Source: a virus (Duplodnaviria; Caudoviricetes). Taken from it: a DNA stretch of 56,714 bases. The translations under genes and the position numbers were made by a program. The stretch covers positions 1 to 56,714 of IMG/VR virus record IMGVR_UViG_3300045741_000168. One strand, written 5' to 3'. Below are positions 8,401 to 51,001 of this stretch, piece by piece (position 1 is the stretch's first letter; each line of letters opens with the position of its first letter). The notes beneath the pieces are model-generated. The model was not told where the DNA came from, searched no databases, and saw nothing but the letters and a program-made list of their open reading frames with translations.

Positions 8401-8460
8401 GCCGGGCGGGCGGACCGGGCGCGGGACCGGGCGCGGGACCGGGCGGGCGGGGGCCGGCGC
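8401..8460 (+). repeat. GC-rich tandem repeat with many GGG runs (G-quadruplex potential)
   Basis: gggcgggcggaccgggcgcgggaccgggcgcgggaccgggcgggcggggg. Confidence 0.8.
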
Positions 8461-41923: not shown

Positions 41924-42331
41924 ATGTCACTCGATCCAGTAACAGCACTTCTCGATATTGGCAGTAAAGTCATCGACAGGCTTTGGCCCGACCCGACGCA
42001 GGCCGCCGCCGCGAAGCTCGAACTGTTCAAGCTCCAGCAATCTGGCGAACTCGCGCAGATGACTGGGCAACTGGAGATCAACAAGGTCGAGGCGGCAAGT
42101 ACGAGTCTGTTCACGAGTGGATGGAGACCAGCCATTGGCTGGGTCTGCGGCGCAGGGTTTGCTTGCCAGTTCGTCATAGGGCCACTTGCGAGTTGGGGGA
42201 GCCGATTGGTAGGACATCCTGTCGATCTGCCTCCGCTCGATGTTGGCGCGATGATGCCTCTGCTATTCGGGATGCTTGGCATGGGCGCATATCGGACTGC
42301 GGAGAAGATTCAGGGCGTGGCGGCTAAGTAG
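41924..42331 (+). CDS. Holin (3TM family)
   Basis: SGWRPAIGWVC...LLFGMLGMGAYRTAEK. Confidence 0.85.
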   Translation: MSLDPVTALLDIGSKVIDRLWPDPTQAAAAKLELFKLQQSGELAQMTGQLEINKVEAASTSLFTSGWRPAIGWVCGAGFACQFVIGPLASWGSRLVGHPVDLPPLDVGAMMPLLFGMLGMGAYRTAEKIQGVAAK

Positions 42332-43284
42332 GCTCTAATGAACTCCGCCGCGACTTGCGGGACGATAGCGTTGCCGTAGGCGCGCAGGCGTCCCACACGG
42401 CTGGTAGTCCCATTAGCCAACGGGAAAATGCCGGGTTGAGTTGGCCTGGCTTTGCCGTCGGAGCACTGGAGCCATTCGATGTCGCACCAAGGACTAGATA
42501 CGCTTGTACCTCTATGCCAACCTGGCGATTGGATTCGGATCGCGCCTTGGCCATCGACTGATTGCTGAGCCGCATCTTTGCATCTGTCGCATTCGGCGTC
42601 GCCCAGTTGGCCAGCCACGCTGCTCGGCCCAGCCGCGCATTGATCGGCACGTTGTTGCACTGTGACCCGTCCTTCCAATCCCGCGTCGTCGGTGTCGGCC
42701 ACAGTGACAATGCCACTTGTTGCGTTAGTGGTATCCCCGTATCGTGTGGCCTTGGAGGCGCAACTCCCCGACTGTGATCTTGGGCAGTCGGAGACACCCA
42801 CGAACCATAATCGCTGCCTGATGTGCGGTGCCCCGACGCTGCAAGCCGGTAAATCTGTCGCCCCGACGGAGTAACCCGCGCTTTCCATGTCATCCGAAAC
42901 AAGGTCGAACCAGGCGAGTGCATTGGCAACCTGCTCTCCAAACACAATTTCAGGGCTGCACTCAGTGATGAGACGGAACCATGTGGGCCAGAGGTGCCGA
43001 CTGTCATCGAAGCCTTTTTGCTTCCCTGATGAACTGAATGGCTGGCATGGACAGCTTCCAGTCCAGACCGGTCGATCGTCCGGCCATCCTGCGAGTCGCA
43101 AGGCGTAGCTCCATCCTCCAATGCCTGCGAAGAAGTGGCATTGTTCATATCCTCTGAGATCGTCTGGTTTGACATCCTCGATGCTCCTCTCGTCCACATC
43201 ACCGGGCGCAATATGCCCCGCAACAATCAAGATGCGCAGCCATGCCGCTGCGAATGGACCATTTTCGTTGTAGTAAGCGGCCAT
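42310..43284 (-). CDS. C5-cytosine DNA methyltransferase (alpha polypeptide)
   Basis: FFAGIGG, GSCPCQPFS, EQV, GAPHIRQRLW, RLRAYGNAIV. Confidence 0.9.
   Translation of the reverse strand: MAAYYNENGPFAAAWLRILIVAGHIAPGDVDERSIEDVKPDDLRGYEQCHFFAGIGGWSYALRLAGWPDDRPVWTGSCPCQPFSSSGKQKGFDDSRHLWPTWFRLITECSPEIVFGEQVANALAWFDLVSDDMESAGYSVGATDLPACSVGAPHIRQRLWFVGVSDCPRSQSGSCASKATRYGDTTNATSGIVTVADTDDAGLEGRVTVQQRADQCAAGPSSVAGQLGDAECDRCKDAAQQSVDGQGAIRIQSPGWHRGTSVSSPWCDIEWLQCSDGKARPTQPGIFPLANGTTSRVGRLRAYGNAIVPQVAAEFIRAYLAATP
42324..43175 (-). CDS. Overlapping-frame methyltransferase beta polypeptide (TRD and motif IX)
   Basis: GAGGAG RBS before MSNQT; WVSP/WPTP/WATP repeats; GQLNPAFSRWLMGLP. Confidence 0.7.
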   Translation of the reverse strand: MSNQTISEDMNNATSSQALEDGATPCDSQDGRTIDRSGLEAVHASHSVHQGSKKASMTVGTSGPHGSVSSLSAALKLCLESRLPMHSPGSTLFRMTWKARVTPSGRQIYRLAASGHRTSGSDYGSWVSPTAQDHSRGVAPPRPHDTGIPLTQQVALSLWPTPTTRDWKDGSQCNNVPINARLGRAAWLANWATPNATDAKMRLSNQSMAKARSESNRQVGIEVQAYLVLGATSNGSSAPTAKPGQLNPAFSRWLMGLPAVWDACAPTATLSSRKSRRSSLEPT

Positions 43285-44925: not shown

Positions 44926-45071
44926 ATGATGGCAAAGATCACAGCCTGCCGCGCTCGTCTGTAGTCTGGTGTTCTGACGCTTTCAGGGCGAGTATCCATC
45001 TCTTCACGGACTGCCCGGAGTAACCTTAATATCTTCTCGTCGTGCTGTTCGGATGCAGATTTGTTCACCAT
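44889..45071 (-). CDS. Hypothetical protein
   Basis: Overlaps neighbours in the operon. Confidence 0.45.
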   Translation of the reverse strand: MVNKSASEQHDEKILRLLRAVREEMDTRPESVRTPDYRRARQAVIFAIMWMQSDIRGPGR

Positions 45072-45661
45072 TTCGTTTTCCTCTTCGCCAATCCAATCAA
45101 ACTAAGCCCAGCAGCAATCAGTTGCAGGGTTGGCGGCTCAGGCACTGGCGGCGGTGTGGACACGACAAGCTGATCCAAGGTGTTCTGTGTTCCGACAAAC
45201 AGGCTCAGTCCAGCGCCATAGGCCTCGTACCACGAGCCGCTAAGTTGATACCAATCGAAGGCCTGGGGTATGGGTGACTGCCCAGGCATCGCAAGTCCAG
45301 AATCGGATGCACTGGAAAACACCACGGTGTAGAGGCCAGGAGGCAGCCACAGACTGTCCGCGATGCCGAACCATCCGCGCTGAAACGGCGGGATGTATGT
45401 GCTGGCCTGATAGATCAGAGAACCTGAGCCTGGAAATTCGGTGTAAATCGAGACCGTCAGATCGGCCCAGTTCTCCGAGTCGAAGTAACCATCGATATTG
45501 GTGATTGTTTCGGCCTCACCCATGCCGAACGACACTCCAAGGCTTTGCTGCCAATTCACAGAATAGAGCGCGCCATATGGATTGCTGCCGGTGTTGACCA
45601 GAGTGTTGGCTGATGCGACAGCCGCGATTGAGAGTAAGAGCGTCGCGAGTAATCGTTTCAT
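45065..45661 (-). CDS. Secreted PEP-CTERM-sorted protein
   Basis: Signal peptide MKRLLATLLLSIAAVASA; C-terminal VPEP, hydrophobic helix, KRK. Confidence 0.85.
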   Translation of the reverse strand: MKRLLATLLLSIAAVASANTLVNTGSNPYGALYSVNWQQSLGVSFGMGEAETITNIDGYFDSENWADLTVSIYTEFPGSGSLIYQASTYIPPFQRGWFGIADSLWLPPGLYTVVFSSASDSGLAMPGQSPIPQAFDWYQLSGSWYEAYGAGLSLFVGTQNTLDQLVVSTPPPVPEPPTLQLIAAGLSLIGLAKRKTKW

Positions 45662-45948
45662 ACCAACCACCACACCAGCAGCGCAGTCCATGCCACCGAA
45701 AACAAGATCAGCCATATCCATATCCGGCGTTGTGCCTGAGCGTCGCGCAGAGCTTCCTCCATCAACCATTGGTTTTCTTCATCGTCTGTCATGGTTTCTC
45801 TCCATCTACCAATGACTTCATAGCTTTTTCGTAGAGTGGTTTAGCAGTTGTTATTACCACATGCCCGATGTAGTACATCATCGCGGCACCAGATAACACA
45901 CCGAATAGATAAATTCCAAGCACAACAATTGCGTCAAATAGGTTCATG

Positions 45949-46170
45949 TTACCCCATCTTGTCGATAGTTAGCGCCATCAGCCTTGCGACTTCCTTGTCA
46001 GTGGTTCTCTGTCCGCCAGGCAATACCCAACCTTCATGGAATGGAGTGCCGAACTGATCTGTTCCAGCATCACCCCAGATAATCCTGCCCTTGCCGATGG
46101 TTATATTCAACTCGTGAGTGAACCGGCCAATTTCTTTGTCCTGTATATGTTTCTTTCCTGGAGCGTTCAT
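45949..46170 (-). CDS. Hypothetical protein
   Basis: Overlaps the upstream stop; GWVLPGG. Confidence 0.55.
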   Translation of the reverse strand: MNAPGKKHIQDKEIGRFTHELNITIGKGRIIWGDAGTDQFGTPFHEGWVLPGGQRTTDKEVARLMALTIDKMG

Positions 46171-46670
46171 TTAATATCGATCCTTCTCTCTTGTACCAGG
46201 TGGCAACCGGGAATCTCGACACCATCTTTCAGAAACTTTGCCAGTAATGTTTTGTCTGGCTCTGGTGGCGGTGGCGGTGGATGCCTCATATATTCAGCAG
46301 GAATAAAGTCAACCTCGTCTATTATTACTTTTGGCGGATTGTTTTTGATCGAGATTGCAAAGTAAGGACTATCTACCTTTGATATTCCTGCATACTCCAT
46401 GCAGTCCAGAAGATACTTCTTCAGCCTGGCAGACCTATTCTCAAGGGCCTTCCTGCGACTGTGCATCTGTTCTTCAGCCTGCTTTATAGAAGAAGCCAAG
46501 GCTTCCAGGTTACGACTGAACATCGCAACGTTGGTGGCCTTGGTTTCAAGATCACCGCCGAGCGAATCCAGAGTATCCCTGACAGTTACCTCATCCAAGT
46601 CCAATTCCGATAACTTCTCGATGGACTGACGGTACTCTGTAGCTAATTGATATAACGCTGGTAATGTCAT
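46167..46670 (-). CDS. Siphovirus Gp157-family protein
   Basis: LYQLATEY...ISIKNNPPKVII...PDKTLL...GVEIPGCHL; start MTLPAL at 46670. Confidence 0.85.
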   Translation of the reverse strand: MTLPALYQLATEYRQSIEKLSELDLDEVTVRDTLDSLGGDLETKATNVAMFSRNLEALASSIKQAEEQMHSRRKALENRSARLKKYLLDCMEYAGISKVDSPYFAISIKNNPPKVIIDEVDFIPAEYMRHPPPPPPEPDKTLLAKFLKDGVEIPGCHLVQERRIDIK

Positions 46671-46674
46671 AATA

Positions 46675-46783
46675 AATCCTTGCTTTGCTTCGCAGAACCC
46701 TGCCACGCCGCGCCCCACACCGCCGAGCCCATCCGCGCCAGCACTGCCTGGCATCACCGCGCCCTGCCCGACCGCGCCGCGCC
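46675..46783 (-). ncRNA. Downstream GGY-NN pentamer array (22 units), candidate guide RNA
   Basis: ggcgc ggcgc ggtcg ggcag ggcgc ggtga tgcca ggcag tgct ggcgc ggatg ggctc ggcgg tgtgg ggcgc ggcgt ggcag ggttc tgcga agcaa agcaa ggatt. Confidence 0.75.
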
Positions 46784-46792
46784 GTGATTATA

Positions 46793-47383
46793 TTAAGCAA
46801 CAGCTTTCAATACTTCAACTTCTTCCCACTTGGTAACAACAAACTTCCCATATGGCCCTTTTGTTGCTGGCCTGAAGTCTCCTAGCCCGATACGCTTCCC
46901 AGCATCATCGACAATCATTCTGAAAATCTTTGCTCCGGCAATAGACGTATCAAGATCGACAAGGAATTCCAGCGCCCAGTCATCGAACATAGGCCGATGA
47001 GCCAAGATTCGGCCACCAGTCGATGGGATGCGTACAGCGCGTGTATCGACCTTCCACGGCTGCTTTGTAATCAGTGTGATCTCAGCGCCTTCGATATCGA
47101 CGCAGGCATACAGGTGACTACTCTTGCTGGTGGTTAGTTGAGTCTTGCCAGCTTTGTGAAACCGTCCGCCCTCTACAAGGCACCGCATTAGATTAGGCTG
47201 AGGGATCATAGGTTTACCATCCAACCCGATATATAGCTTGCTCTCTGCAATCTCTAGCGGTGTTCCACGATCCTGTGCGGCTCCCGATCCACGAGTTCCA
47301 TTCGTTGCTGATTCCGCTGCTGCATCGGTAAACTTGTTGCAGATCAGCGGTGTTGTACCTTCGATTCTGATTGATAGTTTCAT
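46793..47383 (-). CDS. RAMP/Cas7-like protein (Vipr-like candidate effector)
   Basis: N-terminal strand IRIEGTTPLI, PMIPQPNLMRCLVEGG, HRPMFDDW, C-terminal Gly-rich loop AGKRIGLGDFRP...GPYGKF; flanked by pentamer arrays. Confidence 0.7.
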   Translation of the reverse strand: MKLSIRIEGTTPLICNKFTDAAAESATNGTRGSGAAQDRGTPLEIAESKLYIGLDGKPMIPQPNLMRCLVEGGRFHKAGKTQLTTSKSSHLYACVDIEGAEITLITKQPWKVDTRAVRIPSTGGRILAHRPMFDDWALEFLVDLDTSIAGAKIFRMIVDDAGKRIGLGDFRPATKGPYGKFVVTKWEEVEVLKAVA

Positions 47384-47399
47384 AATTCCTCTTTAGTTA

Positions 47400-47544
47400 A
47401 AGCCTTGCCTATCCTTGCAGCGCTCGGCATTACCATGCAGGGCCCGGCAATACATTGCGTCGCCTCGCCGACCATTGCCCCACCGAGCAATGCTGTGCAG
47501 CGCCGGGCACTACCACGCCGGGCAAAGCCCGGCATTACCATGCC
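47400..47544 (-). ncRNA. Upstream (G/T)GY-NN pentamer array (29 units), candidate guide RNA
   Basis: 29 consecutive in-phase pentamers, all with G at position 2 and 27 with a pyrimidine at position 3. Confidence 0.8.
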
Positions 47545-47546
47545 AT

Positions 47547-47996
47547 CTAATTAAAAGGTATATCGTCATCCATATCGCCGAATGGCGGAGGATCGTTCTC
47601 GGTGTATGCCCTCTTGGGAGCTGACTTTGCAGCAACCCGATCAGACACTCGTGCAGGAGACCTCGGGGGAGACGCAACCCTGTTGGCCTTGATCCGCAAA
47701 CCGCCAGTAACTTTGCCACCGTACGAGATAGATGGGTCTGTGTAGAGCACAACTTCCTGGCCCTTCCAGTCGTCAGTCTCATCAGAGTTCAGGGCGTTGG
47801 CGATCAAATTCATGTTGGTCGGGTTGAGCACCATGCCCTTGTCGAATTCCTTGAAGTAAATCACGTACTTCATTTCCTCAGAATCGCCATCACGTGCAAC
47901 GTTTTCCACTTTGACGCCACGAATAGTGACAATGTAATCTTCTTCCACATCAGCCTGTTTCAGGTATTTGCTCGGCATCATTTTGCTTATCTTCAT
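47547..47996 (-). CDS. Single-stranded DNA-binding protein-like
   Basis: SKYLKQAD, LNPTN, acidic tail DDDIPF. Confidence 0.7.
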   Translation of the reverse strand: MKISKMMPSKYLKQADVEEDYIVTIRGVKVENVARDGDSEEMKYVIYFKEFDKGMVLNPTNMNLIANALNSDETDDWKGQEVVLYTDPSISYGGKVTGGLRIKANRVASPPRSPARVSDRVAAKSAPKRAYTENDPPPFGDMDDDIPFN

Positions 47997-48100
47997 GTTC
48001 CAGTTCCTGTTTGAGTAAAGTGCAGGGTTTTGAATAGACCCTGCGAACTATAGTGGCGGCCAACCAAGGAGTCCAACGTCACATAACCAGCCGCCAATCC

Positions 48101-49764: not shown

Positions 49765-50333
49765 AGTACATGATTACACCATTGTCAGCCGTGGTGCATG
49801 GCGTAGATGAGTCTGCGATCTTTGGTGAGTATCGTACCATCGTTAGCATCGAAGATGATGGTGACGGTATTTACATACAACTGGATCAGGATAAGGAGAA
49901 TCGGCCAGGAAGAATTAAGCTCAACGGACTCGAAGAACTACACAAAGTAGTCGAAGCAGCGACCAAGCTGATGAAGGCTCACGAGAAGCCCGCTGAGATC
50001 GTAGAGACCGATGACTACAAGTGCCCGAACTGTCCTGCTGAGAAGCTGGTGGAGTTGTACCATAAACAATTGCCTGAACTGCCTAGAATTGTAGATATGT
50101 CATCGACCAGACTGAAACATTTGGCCGCACGATGGAGACAAGTTGTTGCTGAAGAAAAGATGACGCGCCAGGAAGGTTTGAATTGGTGGGTAAAGTTCTT
50201 TGGCATGGTCAAAGAGTCCCCGTTCTTGATGGGCACCAACAATCAGAACTGGCGCGCCAGCCTGGACTGGCTCATCGTACAGGACAACTTTCTCAAGGTG
50301 ATCGAAAGGAAATATCACCGTGAAGTTTCGTGA
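49761..50333 (+). CDS. Protein with phage replication-initiator C-terminal-like domain
   Basis: CPAEKLVELYHKQLPELP...ESPFLMG...WRASLDWLI...NFLKVIERKY. Confidence 0.6.
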   Translation: MKYMITPLSAVVHGVDESAIFGEYRTIVSIEDDGDGIYIQLDQDKENRPGRIKLNGLEELHKVVEAATKLMKAHEKPAEIVETDDYKCPNCPAEKLVELYHKQLPELPRIVDMSSTRLKHLAARWRQVVAEEKMTRQEGLNWWVKFFGMVKESPFLMGTNNQNWRASLDWLIVQDNFLKVIERKYHREVS

Positions 50334-51001
50334 TGGCTGAGAAAGTAACAATCGGGAACGCGGAACTGTGGCACGGGGACTGCCGCGATGTACTGCCACT
50401 ACTGCCGAAGCATGACCTGCTACTGACTGACCCGCCGTATGGCATTGGCACTGGAGCTGCATCAGTTGGCAGGGGTGCGAAGCTGTGGGGCGCACAGGAT
50501 TGGGATTTGGTGATTGCCAATGACGCTGTGCAGCTATCGCTTTCAAAGGCTGGGACGGCGATTGTTTGGGGTGGCAATTACTACCCGCTTCCGCCTTCTC
50601 GGTGTTGGCTTCTCTGGGACAAAAAGCAATCGGATGCTTGGTATTCAACGGCTCACTTCGAGATGGCTTGGACGAACATGAACAAGAACTCCCACGCATT
50701 CCGAATGTCGCGAGTAGAGGCGCACACAGGGATGAACAAGGAGCACCCTTCGCAGAAGCCTTTACGACTGATGTCGTGGTGCATCGACCAAGCGGGCCGT
50801 CCTGGCGTTGTGCTTGACCCTTTTATGGGCAGCGGCACAACCGGCGTTGCCTGCGCCCAGCTTGGCAAAGCCTTCACAGGCATCGAACGCGAGCGCAAGT
50901 ATTTCGACATTGCCTGCGAGCGCATCAGCCGCAGCCAGGCACAGGGCAAGTTAATACCACATGAATCAGCGATAAATCAGATACAGGAACCATTGTTATG
51001 A
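50330..51001 (+). CDS. N6-adenine/N4-cytosine DNA methyltransferase (beta class)
   Basis: TDPPYG, HPSQKP, VLDPFMGSGTT. Confidence 0.9.
   Translation: MMAEKVTIGNAELWHGDCRDVLPLLPKHDLLLTDPPYGIGTGAASVGRGAKLWGAQDWDLVIANDAVQLSLSKAGTAIVWGGNYYPLPPSRCWLLWDKKQSDAWYSTAHFEMAWTNMNKNSHAFRMSRVEAHTGMNKEHPSQKPLRLMSWCIDQAGRPGVVLDPFMGSGTTGVACAQLGKAFTGIERERKYFDIACERISRSQAQGKLIPHESAINQIQEPLL

What the first reader, a model, noticed from the sequence alone, without database searches (positions are those of the whole stretch)
46675..47544. Candidate RNA-guided system: a RAMP/Cas7-like gene bracketed by two phased GGY-NN pentamer arrays
Seen: a compact 870-bp unit on the minus strand made of a 29-pentamer array, an RBS, a 196-aa gene and a 22-unit array. 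Each pentamer has a conserved (G/T)GY triplet and a variable dinucleotide, so this is neither a simple tandem repeat nor a CRISPR repeat-spacer array. The protein has an N-terminal beta strand (IRIEGTTPLI), a PxIPxxxL..L segment and a C-terminal Gly-rich loop (GKRIGLGDFRP..GPYGKF). Established: that motif order is characteristic of RAMP/Cas7 proteins, which polymerise along guide RNA with fixed periodicity. Inference: one subunit binds each 5-nt unit, with GGY as scaffold and the NN pairs jointly specifying a gapped target, for example in a competing phage. This matches what I recall of the recently reported VIPR architecture (from memory, not verified here). No nuclease or Cas1/Cas2 gene is adjacent, so binding or repression is more likely than cutting.
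Basis: partly seen in the sequence, partly recalled or inferred. Interest (0 to 1): 0.95.

Follow-up and report, generated by a model that had tools for sequence, protein, structure and literature searches.

The report
Phage VIPR locus: Vipr plus guide arrays

Summary
On the minus strand, a 29-unit pentamer tract (47544-47400) and a 22-unit tract (46783-46675) bracket a 196-aa gene (47383-46793). They are the only phased (G/T)GY runs in the 56.7-kb window.

The protein is homologous to the solved SUSP1 Vipr protein, PDB 36pp: E 1.3e-6 alone, 7.8e-20 full length as a family profile. Its confident model (pLDDT 94.9) matches Csm3/Cas7 RAMPs. The SUSP1 residues that hold GGY align with R130, D169, F170 and R171.

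Of 37 related viral loci, 36 carry same-strand pentamer tracts beside the gene. The dinucleotides turn over much faster than the gene.

This matches VIPR as described in bioRxiv 10.64898/2026.04.26.720920, so it is a new member of a known kind. This scan already holds 774 VIPR notes in at least 504 genomes.

This clade differs from the studied type II systems:
- No conserved accessory (vap) gene.
- A short GCAAGG-type 3' end, not a pseudoknot tail.
- A relaxed first base.
- Tracts that fill the spaces between operon genes.

Transcription could not be tested.

The parts
47400..47544 (-). Upstream vrRNA tract. It has 29 pentamers of (G/T)GY + NN: about 25 guide units, then a 3' end of four units that reads TGCAA GGATA GGCAA GGCTT.
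   Evidence: 24 of 25 KGY triplets share one phase. Shuffles reached at most 11, against 24 observed. It is one of only 3 phased runs in the window.
46793..47383 (-). vipr gene, encoding a 196-aa minimal RAMP protein. It has an RRM core, a thumb hairpin around R130, and a G-loop G162..G166-L-G-D169-F170-R171-P172..G176..G179.
   Evidence: ORF. PDB 36pp_D SUSP1 Vipr matches at E 1.3e-6, and the family profile at 7.8e-20 over the full length. The model has pLDDT 94.9. Foldseek top hits are Csm3/Cas7. Nearly invariant columns are listed.
46741..46783 (-). Downstream tract, block a: 9 uninterrupted GGY/TGY units. Its last NN shares one base with the next block, which makes a 4-nt unit.
   Evidence: The run of 9 was never reached in 5000 shuffles.
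46675..46739 (-). Downstream tract, block b: 10 units (9 of them KGY), then a degenerate 3' end AGCAA AGCAA GGATT that stops 4 nt before the next ATG.
   Evidence: The GC[AG]AGG end motif is enriched at tract ends in relatives.

Best explanation
This is a VIPR (Viral Interference Programmable Repeat) locus in a complete 56.7-kb sediment phage genome. It consists of a vipr gene flanked by vrRNA tracts.

Shown here:
- The protein is a homologue of the experimentally studied SUSP1 Vipr protein and has a Cas7/Csm3-like RAMP fold.
- The SUSP1 residues that clamp the GGY bases align with R130, D169, F170 and R171 in the window protein.
- The flanking tracts are phased (G/T)GY+NN pentamers on the coding strand.
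- Relatives of the gene almost always carry such tracts, with different NN strings.

Inferred by homology with SUSP1 (bioRxiv 10.64898/2026.04.26.720920 and .720927):
- The tracts are transcribed with the minus-strand early operon and cut out of it.
- One Vipr protomer binds each pentamer and forms a helical filament. The filament buries GGY and displays the NN pairs.
- The NN pairs read double-stranded DNA with one base skipped per unit (NNx NNx ...).
- Binding represses transcription of the bound gene, most likely in a competing phage, prophage or satellite in the same host.

With no nuclease or helicase partner nearby, silencing is more likely than cleavage. The actual target is unknown.
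For: Array statistics.

Homology to solved Vipr. The alignment pairs window R130, D169, F170, R171 with chain R138, D177, W178, R179. Section 5 of the cryo-EM preprint names these as G2, G1, G2 and Y3 contacts, and reports that D177A and R138A abolish silencing.

Fold.

Family size: 1597 proteins at E <= 1e-3 among 1735 candidates, and 2332 50%-identity cluster representatives.

Co-occurrence: 31 of 37 viral loci have an upstream tract, 28 of 37 a downstream tract, and 36 of 37 at least one. About 28 of these loci are distinct.

Variable NN: over 1956 pentamers in 110 distinct tracts, positions 1-3 carry 1.07, 0.22 and 0.59 bits of entropy and positions 4-5 carry 1.90 and 1.97. NN entropy is 3.82 of 4 bits. 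Positions 1-3 were used to call the tracts, so that side is biased.

Turnover: pairs with vipr 87-96% identical have tracts only 62-82% identical, close to what fixed GGY alone would give. L032 against L041 has gene 96%, far flank 99% and upstream tract 77%.

Contact residues: N16, R130, D169, F/Y170 and R171 are unchanged in 31 of 32 related loci. The 32nd (L037) aligned only in part.

Context: phage structural and replication genes surround the locus. No cas genes or nuclease are nearby. No self-target was found, as the paper also reports for its own guides (paper section 27).
Against: No target was found by the 1-nt-skip rule in any search I could run.

No RNA data exist for this phage, so transcription, processing and binding are untested.

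The tracts depart from the studied type II form:
- Only 15 of 29 upstream units are strict GGY. Nine are TGY and five are other triplets.
- There is no 40-60-nt pseudoknot tail.
- No conserved vap gene is present.
- The upstream tract has 29 units, against 9-16 per vrRNA in type II.

The mapping of SUSP1 H17 to N16 and K33 to R31 rests only on my reading of the profile alignment.
Confidence: 0.88

Rival explanations
1. It is a working VIPR locus, but its guides regulate the phage's own genes or host genes, as timing or takeover control, rather than rival mobile elements.
For: The tracts sit inside the early replication and recombination operon and fill the spaces between genes. No rival-element target was found.
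Against: The best 12-unit skip-1 match in the window itself and in 42 related loci was 17 of 24 bases. That is no better than guides with shuffled unit order, which averaged 17.9 with a maximum of 19. The host genome is unknown, so host targets could not be tested. The published natural targets are satellites, prophages and other VIPR loci.
Confidence: 0.12
2. It is a decaying or idle VIPR remnant. The gene is intact, but the tracts are degenerate and no longer make usable guides.
For: Five of 29 upstream units are not KGY. The downstream tract has a phase slip and a degenerate end. No target was found.
Against: The paper states that internal degeneracy of vrRNAs is frequent (Methods section 20). 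AGC and CGC are also the commonest off-consensus units in relatives, at 71 and 70 of the non-KGY triplets, so position 1 is relaxed across the clade rather than decayed here. The protein keeps every nearly invariant family residue. The phage genome is rated 100% complete.
Confidence: 0.07
3. It is a stray Cas7/Csm3 gene from a CRISPR-Cas system, or the periodicity is a chance G+C-rich repeat.
For: The best structural matches are Csm3/Cas7.
Against: By sequence, the only significant PDB match is SUSP1 Vipr. No Pfam, NCBIfam or PADLOC Cas model matches the protein. No CRISPR-like repeat was found. Chance is excluded by the shuffles and by recurrence of the tracts in 36 of 37 loci.
Confidence: 0.01

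Closest known systems
VIPR systems. The reference is type II of Escherichia phage SUSP1 and a Pseudomonas fulva prophage (bioRxiv 10.64898/2026.04.26.720920; structures in 10.64898/2026.04.26.720927, PDB 36pp).
   Same: The Vipr protein is homologous, with a full-length profile match at 7.8e-20. It has a minimal RAMP fold and conserved GGY-clamping Arg, Asp, aromatic and Arg residues. GGY/NN pentamer tracts lie on the gene's strand on both sides. The NN are hypervariable. It is phage-borne, with no CRISPR array or cas genes and no self-target.
   Different: The protein is only distantly related: the pairwise match is E 1.3e-6 over residues 105-181. No conserved vap gene is present. The tracts end in a short GC(A/G)AGG motif followed by T/A-rich bases, not a roughly 40-60-nt pseudoknot tail. 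Position 1 of the unit is G in only about 60% of units here, with T in 30%. The upstream tract has 29 units, against 9-16 per vrRNA. The tracts abut the ribosome-binding sites of the next genes. I could not assign one of the paper's seven types, because that needs its figure 5 and supplementary data, which I did not see.
'Staggered' vrRNA arrays (legend of fig. S18 in 10.64898/2026.04.26.720920, read as a passage).
   Same: The two downstream blocks share one base, which gives a 4-nt unit. In relatives, blocks follow one another directly with phase shifts.
   Different: Among 19 adjacent block pairs in relatives, the shift was 0 in 8, +1 in 8, -1 in 2 and +2 in 1. The window's -1 slip is therefore the rarer kind. 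I saw only the legend, not the figure.
Cas7-family backbone subunits of class 1 CRISPR effectors: Csm3 of type III-A, Cmr4 of type III-B and Cas7 of type VII.
   Same: The fold is the same (Foldseek E 2e-6 to 5e-5, TM 0.42-0.59). Both have a G-loop and thumb and polymerise along a guide with a fixed period, as the VIPR papers state.
   Different: Sequence identity is only 10-16%. The period is 5 nt, not 6 nt. The guide is made of fixed and variable pentamers, not repeat plus spacer. There are no partner Cas proteins and no adaptation genes.
TIGR-Tas tandem interspaced guide RNA arrays. I know these only as cited in 10.64898/2026.10.21.760802 and from recall.
   Same: They are short-period tandem guide arrays next to their effector gene.
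   Different: Their period is 18 nt and their effector is of an unrelated fold. This locus is not a member.

Membership tests
VIPR | Vipr protein: sequence homology to a characterised Vipr. | tested here: met
   36pp_D 'SUSP1 Vipr protein' matches at E 1.3e-6, query residues 105-181. A profile of 90 family members matches at E 7.8e-20, positions 1-184 against chain residues 1-188 of 202. The next PDB hit has E 0.36.
VIPR | Minimal RAMP fold with an RRM core, a glycine-rich loop and a thumb. | tested here: met
   The model has pLDDT 94.9 and pTM 0.88. Foldseek gives 87 PDB matches at E <= 0.001, and all 28 printed rows are Csm3, Cmr4 or Cas7 chains. The G-loop residues G162, G166, R171, P172, G176 and G179 are 90% or more conserved. 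The thumb is assigned by alignment of R130 to SUSP1 R138. It was not checked by superposition on a Vipr structure, because 36pp did not appear in the fold library.
VIPR | Residues that recognise GGY: SUSP1 H17, R138, D177, W178 and R179. | tested here: met
   R130, D169, F170 (aromatic in place of Trp) and R171 align directly. They are unchanged in 31 of 32 related loci, allowing F or Y at position 170. H17 corresponds to N16 only by my reading of the profile alignment.
VIPR | Tandem YNNGG (GGY/NN) repeats, at least four units, in the intergenic DNA beside vipr. | tested here: met
   There are 29 and 22 units on the gene's strand. The consensus is relaxed at position 1 (G/T, sometimes A/C). 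The paper allows 'a related consensus'.
VIPR | GGY conserved and NN hypervariable across related loci. | tested here: met
   Entropies are, with ascertainment bias on GGY. Tract identity is 62-82% where the gene is 87-96% identical. There the excess of NN changes over GGY changes was small in the one pair I counted by eye: 5 of 24 against 4 of 36.
VIPR | Invariant 3' tail after the repeat tract. | tested here: inconclusive
   A short GC[AG]AGG end motif is present at 67 of 110 tract ends, against 221 of 1626 interior units. Both window tracts end with it. No long structured tail, hammerhead or other Rfam family was found. I could not compare tails of the other types.
VIPR | vap accessory gene in the operon. 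The paper says 'typically': six vap families for seven types. | tested here: not met
   Neither window neighbour has a homologue next to vipr in 42 related loci. Neighbours elsewhere are DUF669 SSB-like (8 loci), RusA (5), YqaJ exonuclease (4), a helicase, portal and terminase. The paper does not present vap as obligatory.
VIPR | vrRNAs are expressed and bound by Vipr. | not testable with these tools
   This needs RNA sequencing or pull-down experiments.
VIPR | Guides match natural targets by the 1-nt-skip rule at 80% or more NN match. | tested here: inconclusive
   Exact 9-10-unit seeds only: seven IMG/VR scans gave 0, 1, 1, 1, 0, 4 and 1 hits. Two metagenome scans gave 0 and 46 hits. Where extension could be scored (all but the hit to L046, which already spans the whole 9-unit block), flanks were at chance. 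A search with mismatches allowed, like the paper's nhmmer search, was not possible on the collections.
CRISPR-Cas class 1 (Cas7/Csm3) | CRISPR repeat-spacer array and partner cas genes (Cas10 or Cas8, Cas5, Cas6, Cas1-Cas2). | tested here: not met
   No such repeats were found. No Cas families were found in the neighbours. No Pfam, NCBIfam or PADLOC model matches the protein.

The most novel reading that the evidence does not exclude
This clade has 1597 close relatives, mostly from environmental viral contigs. It may be a stripped-down form of VIPR that the papers' main text does not describe. Its features would be:
- A three-part cassette (tract, vipr, tract) with no accessory gene.
- Movement between unrelated phage backbones. 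Only the vipr gene aligns at DNA level among 42 loci, and the neighbours differ.
- Guides carried in the untranslated spacers of an early operon.
- Capping by a short GCAAGG motif instead of a pseudoknot.
- Tolerance of T, A or C at the first repeat base, perhaps because Asn replaces the His that reads G1 in SUSP1.
- Filaments of up to 25-45 units, which would footprint 75-135 bp.
Probability: 0.25. Interest if true: 0.45.

Novelty: new member of a known kind. Interest (0 to 1): 0.3.

Why it matters
The finding adds no new principle. VIPR, its pentamer code, its structures and its role in conflict between phages are in four 2026 preprints. This scan has already noted VIPR 774 times.

Its value is as an annotated example of a divergent, abundant environmental clade. 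That clade is vap-less, short-tailed and relaxed at the first base. It could help define the minimal requirements of the system: which RNA end is needed to cap a filament, whether vap is dispensable, and how G1 is read. It also gives compact parts (196 aa) for programmable DNA binding.

It also assigns a function to two intergenic stretches and a 'hypothetical protein' (phrog_4652) in this phage.

Tried and rejected
Target search. Skip-1 patterns built from the window's NN units were run in three ways.
- Local, with mismatches: against the window and 42 loci. The best 12-unit match was 17 of 24, which is not above shuffled guides. Skip 3 found the tract itself at 24 of 24, which shows the code worked.
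- Exact, against IMG/VR: units 1-9 gave 0 hits, 9-17 gave 1, 17-25 gave 1, 5-13 gave 4 and 16-24 gave 1. Downstream block a gave 1 and block b gave 0.
- Against the whole records of 36 relatives: 12 units with up to 3 mismatches gave 0.

Where extension could be scored, no hit extended.
- The block-a hit (L046) already spans the whole 9-unit block, so extension could not test it. It lies in a 570-aa ORF whose function I did not test. By my arithmetic the skipped base falls on codon position 2, not on the wobble position. I treat it as chance.
- Units 5-13 read on the opposite strand spell P-[DE]-[IM]-V-A-G-L-T-G. The 46 metagenome hits plus 4 viral hits lie in unrelated protein contexts. Their flanks match 2-14 of 32 bases, where 8 is expected. 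I rejected them as a target.
- Units 3-15 gave 0 hits in the metagenome collection.

Absence of a target is weak evidence, because the published method tolerates 20% mismatch and mine could not.

Other steps that led nowhere:
- blastn of 46100-48100 against 50,697 phage records found no match.
- Rfam found nothing in the tracts, and no hammerhead in the window or in L040, L020, L012 or L005.
- The promoter and terminator scan gave 4 promoter-like sites against 3.5 expected and 0 terminators, which is uninformative.
- Sequencing runs: no RNA holder is listed. The one DNA run (sediment metagenome) may be the source sample.
- I looked for a link between residue 16 and first-base usage, but residue 16 is Asn in all 32 loci, so no test was possible.
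- Complex prediction, the protein-atlas search and the BFVD fold library were not used.
- Type assignment (I-VII) was not possible without the paper's figures and supplements.
Full report
WHAT IS THERE.
Read on the minus strand, the stretch has five parts in order:
- The stop codon of a 149-aa gene (47996-47547), then 2 nt.
- 29 phased pentamers (47544-47400), then a Shine-Dalgarno-like AGAGGA.
- A 196-aa ORF (47383-46793), then 9 nt.
- 22 pentamer units (46783-46675) with a single 4-nt unit between units 9 and 10, then 4 nt.
- The ATG of a Sipho_Gp157 gene (46670-46167; PF05565, E 6e-47).

The tracts therefore fill both intergenic spaces.

In the upstream space, 24 of 25 (G/T)GY triplets share one phase. 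In 2000 dinucleotide-preserving shuffles the best-phase count averaged 6.4 and never passed 11. The downstream tract is split by the slip, so its single-phase count (9) is not above shuffles (max 10). Its uninterrupted run of 9 was never reached in 5000 mononucleotide shuffles, where the maximum was 5.

Across the whole window and both strands, these are the only runs of 8 or more phased units. No other uninterrupted run exceeds 4 units. Same-base frequency peaks at lags 5 and 10 in both tracts and is flat in the gene.

THE PROTEIN.
Pfam, NCBIfam and PADLOC have no model for it. PHROGs places it in phrog_4652, of unknown function (E 1e-19).

Against all PDB sequences, the only significant match is 36pp_D, 'SUSP1 Vipr protein'. 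The match is E 1.3e-6 for residues 105-181. A profile of 90 family members (alignment A1) matches the same chain end to end at E 7.8e-20, and the next hit has E 0.36.

AlphaFold2 on A1 gives pLDDT 94.9 and pTM 0.88, with a beta-alpha-beta core, a long beta hairpin (111-118 and 125-133) and a C-terminal glycine-rich segment. Foldseek against the PDB gives 87 matches at E <= 0.001. Every one of the 28 printed rows is a Csm3, Cmr4 or Cas7 chain of a type III or type VII CRISPR complex (best 9ash_F at 1.9e-6; TM 0.42-0.59; identity 10-16%).

Section 5 of the cryo-EM preprint names the SUSP1 residues that hold the repeat: H17 and D177 for G1, R138 and W178 for G2, and R179 with others for Y3. It reports that D177A and R138A abolish silencing. 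In the alignment these correspond to window D169, R130, F170 and R171. By my reading of the profile alignment, H17 corresponds to N16 and K33 to R31. R130, P131, G162, G166, R171, P172, G176 and G179 are at least 90% conserved in the family.

RELATIVES.
The family is large. There are 1597 proteins at E <= 1e-3 among 1735 candidates, nearly all unnamed. There are 2332 50%-identity cluster representatives.

Of 37 IMG/VR loci with a relative (59-88% identity), 31 have a same-strand tract within 400 nt upstream, 28 have one downstream, and 36 have at least one. The exception, L024, shows weaker tracts by eye. Nine of the 37 are exact duplicates of others, so about 28 are independent. Five more loci come from metagenome-assembled genomes of diverse phyla.

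Over 110 distinct tracts and 1956 pentamers, positions 1-3 have entropies of 1.07, 0.22 and 0.59 bits, and positions 4-5 have 1.90 and 1.97 bits. The tracts were called on positions 1-3, so only the NN side is unbiased.

Where vipr genes are 87-96% identical, the tracts are 62-82% identical. That is about what fixed GGY plus random NN would give. In L032 against L041 the gene is 96% identical, a flank 99% and the upstream tract 77%, with an indel.

At DNA level, only the vipr gene of the window aligns to any of 42 loci. This suggests the cassette moves between phage backbones.

FEATURES OF THIS CLADE.
- Accessory gene. The two window neighbours have no homologue beside vipr in 42 loci. Neighbours elsewhere are DUF669 SSB-like proteins (8 loci), RusA (5), YqaJ exonuclease (4), a helicase, a portal and a terminase. 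So there is no conserved vap, but the cassette often sits in replication and recombination modules. The window's 149-aa neighbour ends in an SSB-like acidic tip (that resemblance is recalled, not tested).
- 3' ends. GC[AG]AGG lies at 67 of 110 tract ends, against 221 of 1626 interior units. In L040, fourteen successive tracts each end in the same GGCAAGGCAAGG followed by a T run. Both window tracts end in a version of this motif. No Rfam family or hammerhead was found.
- First base. It is G in 60% and T in 30% of window units, and G in 37-85% among relatives. Inside tracts, the commonest off-consensus triplets are AGC (71) and CGC (70).
- Block length. Blocks have a median of 15 units and range from 9 to 45. 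Adjacent blocks are in phase in 8 pairs and shifted by +1 in 8, -1 in 2 and +2 in 1. The window's -1 slip fits the 'staggered array' legend that I read as a passage.

TARGETS.
I applied the published 1-nt-skip rule. Nothing in the window or in 42 related loci beats guides with shuffled unit order, so there is no self-target. Exact 9-10-unit seeds found 0-4 hits per pattern in IMG/VR, and 0 and 46 hits in the metagenome collection. The flanking units, where there were any to score, matched at chance. Twelve units with up to 3 mismatches found nothing in the whole records of 36 relatives. The target is therefore unknown. My searches were much less tolerant of mismatch than the paper's.

MECHANISM.
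- Shown: homology, fold, conserved contact residues, tract statistics, co-occurrence and NN turnover.
- Inferred from SUSP1: transcription within the co-directional minus-strand operon (49495 down to about 44013), processing of the transcript, one protomer per pentamer, a filament that displays NN, gapped pairing with dsDNA, and repression of a competitor's gene.
- No nuclease or helicase lies nearby. In the paper, the nuclease-linked types are III-V.

COMPARISON AND NOVELTY.
The locus works like VIPR and meets the VIPR features I could test. The exception is vap, which the paper calls typical rather than required. The tail test was inconclusive.

VIPR is in print in four preprints:
- Discovery: I read the abstract, all Results, Methods sections 18, 20, 26 and 27, and legend passages.
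- Structures: abstract and sections 5 and 6.
- Phage-satellite competition and solo vrRNAs: abstract and passages.
- Language-model survey that recovered 99 VIPR-like clusters: passages.

This scan already holds 774 VIPR notes in at least 504 genomes. The finding is therefore a new member of a known kind.

CAVEATS.
- No RNA or binding evidence exists for this locus.
- The VIPR type is not assigned, because I did not see the supplements.
- The H17-to-N16 mapping is indirect.
- The NN-versus-GGY contrast is partly built into how I called the tracts.
- The host is unknown. The record is a virus record rated 100% complete.

Noticed in passing
window 47547-47996 (-): The 149-aa protein directly upstream of the locus (phrog_21613, unknown function) ends in an acidic ...DDDIPF-type tip like the C-terminus of bacterial SSB (that resemblance is recalled, not tested). 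In 8 related loci the gene upstream of vipr is a DUF669 / phrog_6015 'single strand DNA binding protein'. The two proteins share no blastp similarity.
   Followed up: partly
window 45065-45769 (-): A phage-encoded 234-aa protein has a C-terminal PEP-CTERM sorting motif (PF07589, E 1.3e-4, above the gathering score). This hints at a host that has an exosortase.
   Followed up: no
L027 347-2039 (the same contig as L040): Fourteen successive guide tracts of 15-27 units lie upstream of one vipr gene. Each ends in the same GGCAAGGCAAGG followed by a T run and a GAGGGG spacer. This is the clearest view of unit boundaries in the clade.
   Followed up: partly
L008 and L009 (one 52-kb viral contig rated 100% complete): Two vipr genes lie on the same contig, near its two ends. 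They are 93% identical, and their flanking tracts are only 65-74% identical. This could be two loci or a permuted or terminally redundant assembly.
   Followed up: no
Related loci L001-L043, residue aligned to window position 165: Loci with Val at the position aligned to SUSP1 C173 (Y3 pocket) have G at the first repeat base in 67-85% of units. Loci with Ile, the window included, have G in 37-83%. The loci are related to one another, so this may be ancestry rather than cause.
   Followed up: partly
window 42310-43284 (-) and 50330-51001 (+): Two DNA methyltransferase genes flank the early region: a C-5 cytosine type (PF00145) and an N6/N4 type (PF01555).
   Followed up: no
window 8402-8457: A separate G+C-rich tandem repeat of period 12 (TRF score 72). 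It is not pentameric and is unrelated to the VIPR tracts.
   Followed up: no
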